This document shows positions 7,840 to 42,413 of a DNA stretch of 64,000 nt, in pieces. The DNA is from Eledone cirrhosa (lineage: Eukaryota): the NCBI GenBank assembly GCA_964016885.1, contig OZ024743.1:361150001-361214000 (forward strand), given 5' to 3'. The translations under genes and the position numbers were made by a program. Every line of letters begins with the position of its first letter. Positions within the stretch are counted from its first letter, which is position 1. Below the pieces are notes generated by a model that was not told where the DNA came from, searched no databases, and saw only the letters and a list, made by a program, of their open reading frames with translations.

Positions 7840-7926
7840 TGGTCCGTCGAGCCGCAGATTACTGAGTCGGGTAATATCGATACAGATCGAACCTTCAGCT
7901 GCTTAGTGGCGAAACGCGCGTCACCA
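7840..7926 (+). ncRNA. Hammerhead-like motif in PLE pLTR, variant core CCGUCGA
   Basis: uggu CCGUCGA gccgc...guggc GAAA cgcgc GUC acca. Confidence 0.6.
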
Positions 7927-8248
7927 ACCAATAAATGTAATGAAGGAGTAACCAATCGTCCTTGTTATCTTTTCAAAAAAAAAAAAAAAAAAAAAAAAAA
8001 AAATATATATATATATATATATGGAAAGTTATATTTAAATTGTTGGGTTAACAACGAGTAAATATTTATAACTGATATAAAAGCACTCAACAAGTATTTG
8101 GAGTATTTTTCTTCGTTTTTCTTTCTTTCTTGCTCTCTTTCTTTTTACAACTGTCCATAATGTTTTTACTGCCAAATCAACTTCCCAAATGCAAGTCGAT
8201 TGAAAGGTATGTCGTATCTATTTATTTATAAGACTGTTTATATTGTAT

Positions 8249-8308
8249 TTTGTCTGAAGAAGGCATAACATATTGTTAATATGATATCCCTGAAATATAT
8301 ATAATGAA
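8249..8308 (+). ncRNA. Hammerhead-like motif, core CUGAAGA
   Basis: uuugu CUGAAGA agg...ccu GAAA uauau AUA augaa. Stem I is weak and wobble-rich. The module lies between (TA)n tracts. Confidence 0.5.
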
Positions 8309-9615
8309 ATAAATATGGTTTTATAAATATAGTTTCCATTTATTTAATATCATATATATATATATATATATATATATATATATATATATATATATACACA
8401 CACACACACACACACACACATATATATATATATATTCGATGCAAGTGACATACATATATATATATTGATGTACAGTGTGGAGCGGCATACATTATACTAT
8501 ACTATGTTTGTATAGTAATTCAAATTAGAATTAAAAGTAAAATTAAAATACATGCGACAGATAACACAGATAATGCAGGATAATAGTTCAATAATCAGAT
8601 CTAGTAGATAGTGTATGCGTTAGTCATACATGGGGCATACAAATGTGTATCATTTATATAAGAGCATTGTATGGCAAGGTATTACATGTAATGCATGCAC
8701 TTTAAGCGGGTAAGCAAGATATTATGGTGGTTGCAGGGGGGGGGGGGGTACAGATCAAATTAGTATGTGTGCAGACAAAGAAAGTTATAGTTTTCACATC
8801 CTTCACCATTTTCACATCCAGAAAGAGGAAGTTATAGTTTTCACATTCATCACATATGTTACGATGTATTCGTATTGAATGTTTGTTGTAGTAAAGGATT
8901 GTAACGCATTGAAGCTCAGTGATATATAATCCATATTTATATGCGAGAATTTACAGCGGTTTAATATCCGGAAGTAGGTATGTAATTAAGGGGAGCTAAT
9001 GCGTAAGGGGCGGTAACTAGCTGATTCTCATAACTAAATTCATTGTTCCAACATACATTATATGTTGCCTCAATTGAGTCCCTTATATATTTATATTTAA
9101 TTTCAAATACAGTCTACTCTCTCATAATGTATTAAAGGTATCTATAGGAAGTTGTTTACTCCTTATTATATAGTCCTATAATTGAATTTTCCACCCAAAT
9201 TGCTATATCTATATATCAAATTCACTTTAAATACAGTCTGGTCTCAAAACATATTAAAGGTCCACTTAGATTTTCTTCTACATAACCTTAGGTAAGCTAT
9301 GTAACAGCGTACGGTGGTTTGCATGATAAAATTAGATACATCCCTTGAGTAAACAAATTCACCCCCCATACACAATGTCATTAATATATCCACTTAGTTA
9401 TAAATGCATATATGATTCATATATAATTTATATTACATATAAGTTAGTGAAATCTCTTATGTTAATAAATTACTCCTATATATACCCAATGTTATTACTC
9501 TATACATTTAAGTACAAGTGCATGTACATTTAAGTACAAGTCATGTTCATTGTTGTATCTAATATTTAAAGTTTATATAAACTGTATTATATTTCAATCC
9601 CTATATAATTATAAG

Positions 9616-9802
9616 TAATTGTTTCTACTTTAGGCACAAGGCCAGCAATTACCAGTGCATTACTGGTACTTTATTTTATCGACCCCGTAAGGATGAAAGG
9701 CAAAGTCAACCTCGGCGGGATTTGAACTCAGATGGTAAAGGGAGGTAACTATGCTGGAAAGCATGGCGTCCGACCCTCTACCGATACTGCCAATCCACCG
9801 CC
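9616..9802 (-). mobile_element. tRNA-derived SINE, full length
   Basis: A box TGGCAGTATCGG and B box GAGTTCAAATCC on the minus strand; TSD tataattataagtaat. Confidence 0.92.
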
Positions 9803-9994
9803 CTTTATAATTATAAGTAATCAAAAGTAATTATATTAAAACGTGGTGATTATATGGATATTTCTAGGGTATAAAGATATAGATAGAATGGTTTGTGTAG
9901 AGAAAAGGGTGGATCAGAGAGTGTGGTGTAGTGGTGGAAGGCAAGCCCTTGATATGCAGTGTTAAAAGTGGTGGTGAGTTCAAATCTGACATTG

Positions 9995-10375
9995 TTATAT
10001 ACTACGTTTAAAGTTTTGGAAAGAATGTCGGAAGCGGTGTTGGCATGACGCAAACACTTCCGACTTTTTATTAAGGAGGTTAAGATTCGAAAATATTATA
10101 GTATGGGTCTCTAGTAGACATAGGTTACAGAATTTATTAGGTGGTTTATACGATGCAGCCCTACCTACTACTTCCCATTGAAGTGTACATGATTTATTCC
10201 TAGTTTTCAGATAGTGTATGTAGCTAGATAGTGAAGTGGAGTTGGCTAGATTGTGGTTTTTGAAAGAATGGAGAAGTGAGTTGTATCTCGTTTTGAAGCA
10301 GTTCGACGTAGAGCCTATATATGTTTCGGAAAAGTTGCTAGTTCTGACCGTGCATGAGTAAATGATTGCCAGATT
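9995..10375 (-). pseudogene. PLE GIY-YIG endonuclease fragment (open frame missed by the ORF track)
   Basis: Manual translation: AIIYSCTVRTSNFSETYIGSTSNCFKTRYNSLLHSFKN...STSLSSYIHYLK...WEVVGRAASYKPPNKFCNLCLLE...LLNKKSEVFASCQHR...*. Confidence 0.88.
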
Positions 10376-39480: not shown

Positions 39481-39494
39481 CTTTTGGTATGGCG

Positions 39495-40640
39495 TCGGTA
39501 CAACATCTGCTAGAAAAAAGCATTAGGCATAACAATGCGGATAGCAGGCCCAGTATTTTGGTGCAGGCAAGCAGTCGTCGCATATTGCACACACTCCCAT
39601 CAGTCCGGAATCGGATGTAAATGCACTCCCGCAGATCTTTCTTTGCTTCGCGGAGCATCATACTGACGAAGATTGCAAGTAGGTTTGGCGCAAGATCACA
39701 GCATTGTTTCACACCATTCTCGACGGGGAATTGATCGGGGAGACAGCCATTGTGCTTCAAATGTCCCTACTATACTCTATGGAGTTGCCTCAGGATTGTC
39801 AGGAAATTTGATAGACATCCAGCTCTGTTGAGGATCTTCCAAAGTCCATCCCTAATAACTGTATCAATTGTTCGTCAGGTCAATGAAGGCAGCTACAGGG
39901 TCATATTTTGTTCACTACATTTCGCTTGCATCTGGCGGAGGACAAAAATCATGTCTGTGGTGATACGTTTGGCCTGGAATCCACATTGGCTTTCTGGGAG
40001 GCAATCTTCAGCAATGGATGCGATGAGTCTATTAAGCAGGACTCGGGCTAGATTTTGCCTGCAATTGAGAGAAACGTGATGCAGCGGTAGTTGGAACAGT
40101 CTGAGTTTTGGCCTTTGTTCTTTTACAGGGTCAATATCACGGCATCCCGGTGGTGTCTTGGGATCTCCCTTTCGACCAACACTGTACAAATAGGTCGATA
40201 GTCATATCCAGGAGTGAGCCACCGCCATACATGTACATTTCAACGGGAATACCGTCAACACCAGGAGCCCTGTGTGTTTTCAGGTGGGTGACTGCTGAAT
40301 GGAAAGGGAATTGTGTTTGGTAAAGGGGGCCATAGACTTCCCTGAGTGTCACATAGCAGGCTCTCTCTTTGCTAATATACGCATAGTGCTGGATCTTGCG
40401 GCCTATTTTGTCCAGCAGTTATTCTTGATATTCCTAAGCCTCATTTTTGTGTTGACTTGGCTGACTGGCTATTCGGGTTCGACAGCACGTTCTGGTGTGT
40501 AGAGCGTTTCTCCTGAATAAGCTTGTGGATTTCATCATCATTCTCATCGAAACAGTCTTTGTTCTTCTTTGTAGAGAAAACCACCACTTCTGCTGTTTTG
40601 CCCTGTAGCGTCCTCTCTAGGTCTCAAGGCTCAAGAGGAC
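39495..40640 (-). mobile_element. RTE/BovB-like LINE fragment (RT N-terminal half)
   Basis: RAPGVDGIPVE, LARVLLNRL...LPESQCGF..TTDMIFVLRQMQAKC, GVKQCCDLAP and IRFRTDG. Confidence 0.9.
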
Positions 40641-40719
40641 ACTACAGGACTATATAGATATGAATATATATATATATATATATATATATATATGGGGCGG
40701 GGGTGTATATAATTATAAT

Positions 40720-42240
40720 TAGTTTTGCAAGGTTTTTGATATGAAATCGTGTGTCGAAACAAATATTGTTATACTTGGTGAGGGTCATATTGTTGTAATA
40801 ATTGTTTCTACTTTTGGCACAAGGCCAGCAATTATCCCAGTGTATTACTGGTACTTTATTTTATCGACCCTTTAAGGATGAAAGGCAAAGTTAACCTCGG
40901 CGGGTTTTGAACTCAGTCCGTAAAGGGACGTAACTGTGCTGCAAAGCATGGCGTCCGACCCTCTACGGATACTGCCAATCCACCGCCCTTGTTGTAATAA
41001 TATTGCCAAAAATATTAACAGAACCCACTCACTGTTTGGTTGGCTTTCGCTTTTGTATCTTTTATATCTCCATAGTTAATTTATTTGGCAATCAATGTTT
41101 ATCATTGATTGACCAACGGTTAAAAATATATATATATATATATATATATATATATATATAGTCTATCAAAGTCTTTCATTGCAAATCTGCAACATCATCA
41201 AATATATATATATATATATATATATATATATATACACAGGTACATTAACAACAAACACATATAAACACACACTAGTAAACAAAGATAGAATACAAAAACA
41301 AAAACACATACTCTCAAACGCGAACACACACACCAAACATTATACACATTGTAAACGCATGCGCAGAGACGGAGAGAAGAAGGAATAAATAAATAAATAA
41401 AATAAAAATGGCCTAGACATACAATACAACAGGAGGAAACAATATTACCACTGGTGATGTTGCACATGTGCAACGAATGAACTTTGATAGACTATATATA
41501 TACATATATATATATGTGTATGTATATATATATATATATATATATTGGTAAACGGAATAGAAAATGCTGACAAATTGTTCACAGTTGAAAAATAGTTTAA
41601 TTAGGAATAAAAGAGTATTAGTAATTGTATGGGTTAGTATTCAGTTATGGTTTTAAGTTTCAGAGATCAGAGCAAACAACACGGACGCTCTATCTCAAAA
41701 TTATTTTTGAAAAGCATTTAGAAATGCGCAACCGGTAAAAACTTAAAAACTTAAAACCACAACTAAATACTAACCCATACAATCACTAATACTCTTTTAT
41801 TCCTAATTAAACTATTTTTCAACCGTGAACAATTTGTCAGCATTTTCTATTCCGTTTACCAATATATAATAACTTGTGTGTTACACCTCTATTCTTTTAA
41901 CTATGTATATATATATATATATATATGTATATATATATATATATATATTTGGCAATCAACGTTTATGATTGTTTGGCCAACGTTTAAAAATACAGATATA
42001 AATATATATATATATATATATATATATATATATATATATATATATATATATATATATATATATTTATATCTGTATTTTTAAATGTTGGCCAAACAATCAT
42101 AAATGTTGATTGCCAAATAAATTAACTACGGAGATATGAAAGAATACAGAAGCGAACACCAACCAAACAGTGAGTGTGTTCTGTTATTATTTCTGGCCAT
42201 ATTATTACAACTATATGACCCTCTCCAGGTATAACAATAT
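40720..42240. mobile_element. Stack of nested (TA)n-separated fold-back modules
   Basis: Inverted pairs 40765-41130/42075-42240, 41158-41199/41453-41495, 41543-41660/41748-41866 and 41948-42003/42060-42118. Confidence 0.8.
40799..40987 (-). mobile_element. tRNA-SINE inserted into a pLTR-like module
   Basis: Full length; TSD ttgttgtaataat. Confidence 0.92.
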
Positions 42241-42377
42241 ATATATATATATATATATATATATATGAAAAGATTCAGGACCTCGACGGCTGAGCTCCGG
42301 CCGTTTCGATAGCTAGATCCGAACTTTTTACACCACCCTATCTGATATATATATATCAGATAGGGTGGTGGAACTCT

Positions 42378-42413
42378 TCCCCCGTTGATGGGCGTGAGCC
42401 CGAAATATTGGGA
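42378..42413 (+). ncRNA. Minimal hammerhead-like motif, variant core CCGUUGA
   Basis: uccc CCGUUGA u gggc guga gccc GAAA u AUU ggga. Confidence 0.55.

What the first reader, a model, noticed from the sequence alone, without database searches (positions are those of the whole stretch)
7840..42413. Same double-variant core CCGUYGA (U4C plus A6U) in two unrelated hammerhead-like motifs
The PLE pLTR at 7844 has CCGUCGA and an unrelated minimal motif at 42382 has CCGUUGA. Both keep stem I, stem II, GAAA and an NUH triplet. Two independent elements carrying the same two substitutions at normally conserved positions would be unexpected from random decay, so this could be a distinct HHR core variant. 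With only two instances, coincidence remains possible, and I cannot check whether it is among the published PLE-HHR variants.
Basis: partly seen in the sequence, partly recalled or inferred. Interest (0 to 1): 0.72.

Follow-up and report, generated by a model that had tools for sequence, protein, structure and literature searches.

The report
Altered-core hammerheads in Penelope retroelements
Two unrelated jumping-gene families in this animal genome carry a self-cutting "hammerhead" RNA motif in which two normally fixed core letters are changed in most copies; the two changes appear to have arisen separately rather than as a matched pair, and in one lineage the rest of the motif has been kept, so it likely still cuts slowly, though cutting is untested.

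Summary
Both motifs are real, and both cores are family consensus, not private mutants. CCGUCGA is in 71 of the first 100 of 455 matches (family F1). CCGUUGA is in 97 of the first 100 of 1,366 (F2). Both lie in pLTRs of unrelated Penelope-like elements; one F2 copy has an intact 887-codon RT/GIY-YIG frame.

A specific U4C+A6U pair is not supported. F1 subfamilies read CUGACGA, CCGACGA and CCGUCGA, most simply a stepwise series. F2's sister families read CAGUUGA (F2b) and CGGAAGA (F2c), so position 4 is C, A or G there. Stems I and II change with pairing kept, and 13 core letters, including G8 and G12, stay fixed. Relatives from other sources are canonical in 8 of 9 cases.

Best reading: slow, dimer-dependent PLE hammerheads whose U-turn positions 4 and 6 are relaxed; F1 may simply be decaying. 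Cleavage is untested, and published double mutants here have low activity. I found no such PLE core in the papers I could read, but two key papers were not held. This scan noted single A6U and A6C PLE cores in other genomes.

The parts
7840..7926 (+). F1 type I hammerhead-like motif (stems I and II, 50-nt insert on stem II, palindromic short stem III, GUC triplet)
   Evidence: family copies
7844..7850 (+). F1 core CCGUCGA (U4C at 7845, A6U at 7847); majority core of its subfamilies
   Evidence: 71 of first 100 of 455 matches
5078..7975 (+). 5'-truncated, frame-broken Penelope-like element F1 (end of RT, Cys linker, GIY-YIG-type region, long 3' UTR, 3' pLTR, then poly(A) and TA repeat); boundaries approximate
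   Evidence: longer open frames in relatives L274, L280, L282, L285; clade label Neptune-like is recalled from motifs, not tested; Pfam found nothing in frame 5131-6042
4970..5077 (-). Inverted partial copy of the F1 pLTR at the 5' end of the insertion (holds GAAA to cleavage site, lacks the core strand)
   Evidence: read directly
42378..42413 (+). F2 minimal type I hammerhead-like motif (4-bp stem I, extra U after A9, 4-bp stem II, no stem III beyond palindromic AUAU, AUU triplet)
42382..42388 (+). F2 core CCGUUGA (U4C at 42383, A6U at 42385); family consensus
   Evidence: 97 of first 100 of 1,366 matches; no other letter listed at these places in contigs of 3 public runs
42369..42624 (+). 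Solo pLTR of Penelope-like family F2, ending in a TA repeat
   Evidence: 98.8% identical over 257 nt to the 3' pLTR of L122, which flanks an intact 887-codon frame with RVT_1 (E 3.6e-11) and a sub-threshold GIY-YIG match (E 3.2e-4)

Best explanation
Both motifs are type I hammerhead folds in the terminal repeats of two unrelated Penelope-like retroelement families, with the altered core fixed in each family; positions 4 and 6 appear to have changed independently, and the F2-lineage motif likely still works as a slow, dimer-dependent self-cleaving RNA, while the F1 motif may be decaying. Shown: the fold, the pLTR location, fixation, the separate occurrence of the two changes, and paired stem changes among F2, F2b and F2c. 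Inferred: two pLTR copies in a tandem transcript pair through the palindromic stem III stub; G12 and the G8 2'-OH cut after N17 and trim the element RNA; loss of U4 and A6 lowers the rate, which these elements tolerate because PLE hammerheads are already slow and may be helped by proteins or ions in the cell. The shared CCGUYGA is then convergence on the two most tolerant core positions, not a compensatory pair.
For: Fixation. F1 subfamilies defined by letters outside the core: 13 of 13 'TCA' rows have U4 and A6, 'CTA' rows are mostly CUGACGA with one branch carrying CCGACGA, and 'TAA' rows are CCGACGA or CCGUCGA. A tree of 78 copies with positions 4 and 6 masked gives a ladder in that order, rooted by me on a canonical copy. 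F2b is 70% identical to F2 in protein and 41% at fourfold sites (75 of 181); it has CAGUUGA in 94 of 100 of 2,632 matches and 88 of 100 of 602 loop variants. F2c is about 45-58% identical in broken pieces; it has G4 in 78, A4 in 20 and U4 in 2 of the first 100 of 171 (counted by eye). Stem II pairs read GC,GC,GC,CG in F2; GC,GC,AU,UA in F2b; GC,AU,GC,AU,UA in F2c; all Watson-Crick. C3, G5, G8, A9, G10.1, C11.1, G12, A13, A14, A15.1, U15.2, A16.2 and U16.1 are unchanged, and N17 is U, A or C. F2, F2b, F2c and one Octopus bimaculoides protein form one clade (bootstrap 100). Of 9 motifs just downstream of related ORFs in metagenome contigs, 8 are canonical, 1 is U4C and none has U6. Precedent for slow but working single variants: U4C in a viroid, A6C in a phage (PMC3088659); A6C activity is kept with Mn2+ (PMC7151607). 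PLE minimal hammerheads cleave weakly and as dimers (PMC4209133).
Against: No cleavage data and no RNA evidence. In a type III hammerhead, all single and double mutants of this motif except the 3-8 swap had low activity (PMC9901934). F2b and F2c were found by a scan that required most of the conserved letters, so part of the conservation is built in, and relatives that lost the core would be missed. About 25 nt downstream of the motif is also conserved between F2 and F2b, so the region may be constrained for another reason. F1 shows no sign of selection on the core: 2 of 13 subfamily differences fall in 13 core positions, 1.3 expected. The predicted fold with stem II formed and the core free is rarer in CCGUCGA copies (median 2e-4, n=37) than in CCGACGA copies (1e-2, n=4). 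Age differences among F1 subfamilies are small and rest on 3 to 5 canonical copies.
Confidence: 0.55

Rival explanations
1. The F2-lineage motif no longer cuts but is kept as a folded cis-element, for example a binding site for the element's RT or a structure beside the pLTR promoter or intron start.
For: Changes at 4 and 6 are each strongly harmful in vitro. Sequence downstream, including a GGTAA word, is conserved with the motif. Naiad PLEs were reported to spread without a canonical hammerhead (PMC8557442).
Against: The letters kept are those needed for chemistry (G8, G12, A9, A13, A14, the A15.1-U16.1 pair, non-G at 17), and the stem III stub stays palindromic in all three families. A binding site need not keep all of these.
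Confidence: 0.25
2. Plain decay: the hammerhead is dispensable, the changes hitch-hiked in successful master copies, and the CCGUYGA match between F1 and F2 is coincidence.
For: Fits F1 well: the core is not depleted of change and an alternative pairing is predicted. In one F2c subfamily the outer stem I pair is lost.
Against: Does not fit F2, F2b and F2c: fourfold sites are 41% identical, yet stems change only in matched pairs and 13 core positions are unchanged. The upstream flank does not align.
Confidence: 0.12
3. One reading: C4 and U6 compensate each other and define a distinct, efficient hammerhead core reached twice.
For: Both families carry C4+U6. In this genome every fixed change at position 6 that I found is to U and sits on a non-U4 background (F1, F2/F2b, an F2c subfamily; two or three origins), whereas private changes at 6 in canonical families are often to G.
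Against: U6 goes with A4 in the larger sister family. C4 goes with A6 in two F1 branches and in one metagenome element. No positive epistasis was seen in the published double-mutant scan. An unchecked note reports A6U fixed with U4 in another genome.
Confidence: 0.08

Closest known systems
[quoted passage not shown]
   Same: Location in pLTRs; type I topology; short stem I; extra base between A9 and G10.1 (F2 clade); G10.1-C11.1 pair; palindromic stem III stub.
   Different: All 56 listed representatives have CUGA or UUGA cores, partly because the search descriptor required it. Here position 4 is C, A or G and position 6 is often U. F1 also has a 50-nt insert on stem II.
Natural single core variants: viroid U4C and phage Bcep176 A6C (Perreault 2011, PMC3088659, section 8 and passages; PMC7151607, passages)
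   Same: Changes at the same two positions, with reduced but real activity.
   Different: Those are single changes in ribozymes with stable stems or tertiary contacts. Here both positions change, position 6 becomes U, and the scaffold is a minimal dimer-type motif in thousands of genomic copies.
Small hammerhead variants of PLEs that cleave as dimers (Lunse, Weinberg, Breaker; PMC5785218) and Terminon hammerheads (Arkhipova 2017; PMC5850863)
   Same: PLE association and short stem III, as described in reviews I read.
   Different: Neither paper was held, so I cannot say whether they list such cores. Craig 2021 says the 2017 Terminon work used relaxed cores with mismatches.

Membership tests
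Type I hammerhead ribozyme | Three-way junction with stems I and II and an A15.1-U16.1 pair, open at stem I | tested here: met
   paired stem changes among F2, F2b and F2c
Type I hammerhead ribozyme | Core strand C3 U4 G5 A6 N7 G8 A9 (or U3-A8) | tested here: not met
   U4 and A6 are replaced in both families; C3, G5, G8 and A9 are kept
Type I hammerhead ribozyme | G12 A13 A14 strand and NUH cleavage triplet | tested here: met
   GAAA with GUC (F1), AUU (F2), AUA (F2b) and AUC (F2c)
Type I hammerhead ribozyme | Match to Rfam Hammerhead_1 (RF00163) | tested here: not met
   no match at either site at E up to 10
Type I hammerhead ribozyme | Site-specific self-cleavage after N17 | not testable with these tools
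   needs an assay; no RNA holder was listed
PLE minimal hammerhead | Lies in pLTRs flanking an RT plus GIY-YIG frame | tested here: met
   F2: a motif on each side of the frame in L121-L124; F1: downstream of the frame in several loci; no full-length two-pLTR F1 copy was found
PLE minimal hammerhead | Short palindromic stem III allowing dimer formation | tested here: met
   palindromes in all families; the predicted F1 dimer pairs through it, but the lowest-energy F2 dimer is a different duplex
PLE minimal hammerhead | Extra base between A9 and G10.1, and a G10.1-C11.1 pair | tested here: met
   F2 clade has both; F1 has the pair but no extra base
Endonuclease-bearing Penelope-like element | [quoted passage not shown] | tested here: met
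   F2 L122; F1 only as partial frames
Named PLE clade (Neptune, Nematis, Penelope/Poseidon) | Placement in a tree with reference elements | not tested
   no reference sequences were on hand; Neptune-like for F1 is recalled from motifs

The most novel reading that the evidence does not exclude
An old lineage of Penelope-like elements in an octopus-like genome (about 4,770 exact pattern matches in three families) runs on a hammerhead that has dispensed with the U of the CUGA U-turn (C, A or G at position 4, often U at 6) and still cleaves usefully in cells, through dimer geometry, a protein or Mn2+. Standard CUGANGA searches would then miss a whole class of working animal ribozymes, and the F1 series CUGA, CCGA, CCGU would be a natural mutational path to assay.
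Probability: 0.3. Interest if true: 0.75.

Novelty: new variant of a known kind. Interest (0 to 1): 0.5.

Why it matters
The role of PLE hammerheads in cells is an open question (PMC7761336). These families give natural test cases. One lineage keeps the fold and the catalytic guanines while losing U4, and another offers three successive cores in a nearly identical scaffold. If they cut, the accepted core consensus is too narrow and genome-wide hammerhead counts are too low. If they do not, a young family with an intact frame spread with a dead but preserved fold, which points to a non-catalytic role.

Tried and rejected
A third apparent CCGUCGA family (31 matches) was rejected because it has no stem I and lies in a GC-rich repeat. 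An open search for CCGUNGA with no extra base gave 172 matches against 590 for the reversed control, and I recognised no further hammerhead family in the first 100. A search for a canonical relative with the F2 loop gave 69 matches with G or U at position 4, only 1 of them CUGACGA. A search for other non-A6 families (309 matches, control 61) showed mostly what look like private mutants of canonical families, plus the lead to F2c. One weak CAGUGGA hit in two metagenome contigs (L385, L386; score at threshold, no G10.1-C11.1 pair, far upstream of the match) was not counted. No RNA holder was listed. The first metagenome scan and the viral scan found no relatives. The first F1 tree and the first F2c divergence figures were distorted by flanking DNA and were redone. 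The two F2c subfamilies are of similar age (14% and 15% pairwise), so I cannot tell whether A6U arose once or twice in the F2 clade. Folding energies do not separate F2 or F2b from canonical relatives, and the F1 window copy folds no better than shuffles (z 0.44). An extra-base form of CCGUNGA in further families, and forms with long stem II, were surveyed only in the DNA held locally.
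Full report
Observation. Both motifs are in the sequence at the stated places. Site 1 has a core CCGUCGA at 7844-7850, a 5-pair stem II capped by a 50-nt insert, GAAA, a palindromic CGCGCG, a GUC triplet and a 4-pair stem I. Site 2 has CCGUUGA at 42382-42388, one extra U, a 4-pair stem II, GAAA, an AUU triplet and a 4-pair stem I. Rfam did not match either site, though it matched a canonical pair at 28983-29176 below its gathering score. The host genome is about 3.0 Gb. One database relative of the F2 protein that falls in its clade is labelled Octopus bimaculoides, so I call the genome octopus-like and no more.

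What carries the motifs. Site 1 is the 3' pLTR of a truncated, broken Penelope-like element (F1) with an inverted pLTR piece at its 5' end. Site 2 is a solo pLTR of a second family (F2). Seven F2 loci were fetched: four hold two motifs in the same direction about 3.3-3.5 kb apart around an RT/endonuclease frame, three hold inverted pairs, and one (L122) has an unbroken 887-codon frame with RVT_1 and a weak GIY-YIG match. F2 copies are young (median pairwise difference 5.5% among 23). F1 and F2 proteins share only a weak endonuclease match, so the families are independent.

Is the core the consensus? Yes. With core positions left open, F2 gave 1,366 exact matches and 97 of the first 100 read CCGUUGA. 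F1 gave 455 matches; the first 100 were 71 CCGUCGA, 9 CCGACGA, 5 CUGUCGA, 1 CUGACGA and 14 others (counted by eye). Reversed-pattern controls were 0. Contigs of three public runs of one study showed no other letter at the F2 core; these may be the same organism and are not independent support for function.

Do the two changes travel together? No. A wider F1 pattern (771 matches) brought in sister subfamilies marked by letters outside the core. All 13 'TCA' rows among the first 100 have U4 and A6. 'CTA' rows are mostly CUGACGA, with one branch carrying CCGACGA, probably a second origin of U4C. A tree of 78 copies with positions 4 and 6 masked gives a ladder from CUGACGA through CCGACGA to CCGUCGA. 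I rooted it on a canonical copy, and the age signal for that direction is weak: divergence from own majority 0.053-0.063 for the 3 TCA and 5 CTA copies, 0.032 for 5 CCGACGA copies, and 0.033 for the 15 outermost copies. In the F2 lineage, scanning held DNA revealed a sister family F2b with CAGUUGA in 94 of the first 100 of 2,632 matches and 88 of 100 of 602 loop variants. A more distant family F2c has G4 in 78, A4 in 20 and U4 in 2 of the first 100 of 171 matches, mostly with A6, and a small subfamily reads CAGUCGA. Some A4 rows are probably CpG decay of G4.

Is the fold still under selection? In the F2 clade the evidence says yes. F2 and F2b are 70% identical in protein and 41% at fourfold sites, and the flank upstream of the motif does not align. 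Stem II differs by two fully compensated pairs, F2c has a different, fully paired stem II and stem I, and 13 core or junction positions are identical in all three, with N17 never G. At 41% identity per site, 13 unchanged positions would occur about once in 100,000 (my arithmetic). That figure is too generous: the families were found by a descriptor that required most of those letters, and about 25 nt downstream is also conserved. A protein tree of 25 rows (6 own loci, 14 of 54 metagenome loci, 5 database proteins) puts F2, F2b, F2c and the octopus protein in one clade with bootstrap 100. Among the 54 metagenome loci, the relaxed scan gave 17 hits in 16 loci and 0 in reversed controls. Nine lie just downstream of the related frame: six CUGANGA, two UUGANAA and one CCGAAGA. 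So U4 and A6 are most likely ancestral, and U4 was probably lost early in this clade. In F1 there is no such signal: 2 of 13 differences between the canonical and outermost subfamilies fall in the core, 1.3 expected, and the new letters allow the core strand to pair with the 3' side of stem II.

How common is this in the genome? In 1.79 Mb of held DNA, 140 distinct hits fell into 20 clusters. Sixteen had canonical CUGA or UUGA majority cores; the other four were F1, F2, F2b and one F2c copy. The variants are therefore confined to two lineages among those sampled.

Mechanism. From established hammerhead chemistry (G12 as base, G8 2'-OH as acid; PMC6155905, passages) and the dimer model for PLE motifs (PMC4209133; PMC6765202, passages), I infer that two pLTR copies pair through the palindromic stub and cut after N17 to trim the element RNA. 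Positions 4 and 6 belong to the CUGA U-turn and help shape the pocket; changes there slow the reaction. Natural U4C keeps a viroid infectious and natural A6C cleaves below 0.1 per minute, and A6C keeps activity with Mn2+. Against this, the double-mutant scan found low activity throughout the motif and no rescue. I put 0.55 on slow cleavage in the F2 clade with independent drift of the two positions, 0.25 on a non-cutting structural element, 0.12 on plain decay throughout and 0.08 on a compensatory pair. F1 taken alone is about as likely to be decaying as working.

What is known. The 56 PLE representatives listed by Cervera and de la Pena all have CUGA or UUGA cores (supplement file 1 could not be searched). 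Nine literature searches showed me no report of a PLE core with non-U4 and U6; for U4C, the search returned only the Perreault paper among hammerhead papers. The supplement of Craig 2021 held none of six motif strings. Lunse et al., Arkhipova 2017 and Hammann 2012 were not held, and any of them could hold such variants.

Verdict. The feature is real, and it is a new variant of a known kind. The specific double-variant idea is weakened. The more interesting result is the F2 clade, which keeps a hammerhead fold and its catalytic bases without U4. Interest 0.5, limited by the lack of any cleavage evidence and by two unread key papers.

Noticed in passing
window 28983-29027 (-) and 29132-29176 (+): Inverted pair of canonical CUGAUGA hammerheads; Rfam Hammerhead_1 29.1 bits, below the gathering score of 34.
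   Followed up: no
window 27765 (-) and 28634 (+): Inverted pair of hammerheads with the known U3-A8 core variant UUGAUAA.
   Followed up: no
window 1904 (-) and 8254 (+): Further canonical-core hammerhead-like motifs. The one at 8254 looks like a family with 8 distinct hits in held DNA.
   Followed up: partly
window 2222-4507: Tandem 588-nt units at 99% identity followed by a 913-nt inverted copy, an arrangement typical of a recent Penelope-like insertion.
   Followed up: no
window 42203-42322, with related copies near 28791, 30255 and 4850-4890: A different TA-inserted repeat next to the F2 pLTR. Its minus strand holds GAAA, a stem and a GUC triplet; it may belong to the rearranged-hammerhead repeats noted elsewhere in this genome.
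   Followed up: no
window about 42430; L358 and L481 downstream of the motif: A GGTAA word followed by a pyrimidine-rich tract lies 20-30 nt after the cleavage site in F2, F2b and F2c, possibly the 5' splice site of a pLTR intron.
   Followed up: no
L391:1896: A metagenome PLE relative with a U4C-only core (CCGAAGA) and a 7-pair stem I; single contig.
   Followed up: partly
L238-L267: GC-rich dispersed repeat holding CCGUCGA, a small hairpin and GAAA but no stem I; probably coding sequence of another element.
   Followed up: partly
L125:2145-4202 (-): An F2 copy whose frame is fused through a TA repeat to a piece resembling another retroelement's frame.
   Followed up: no
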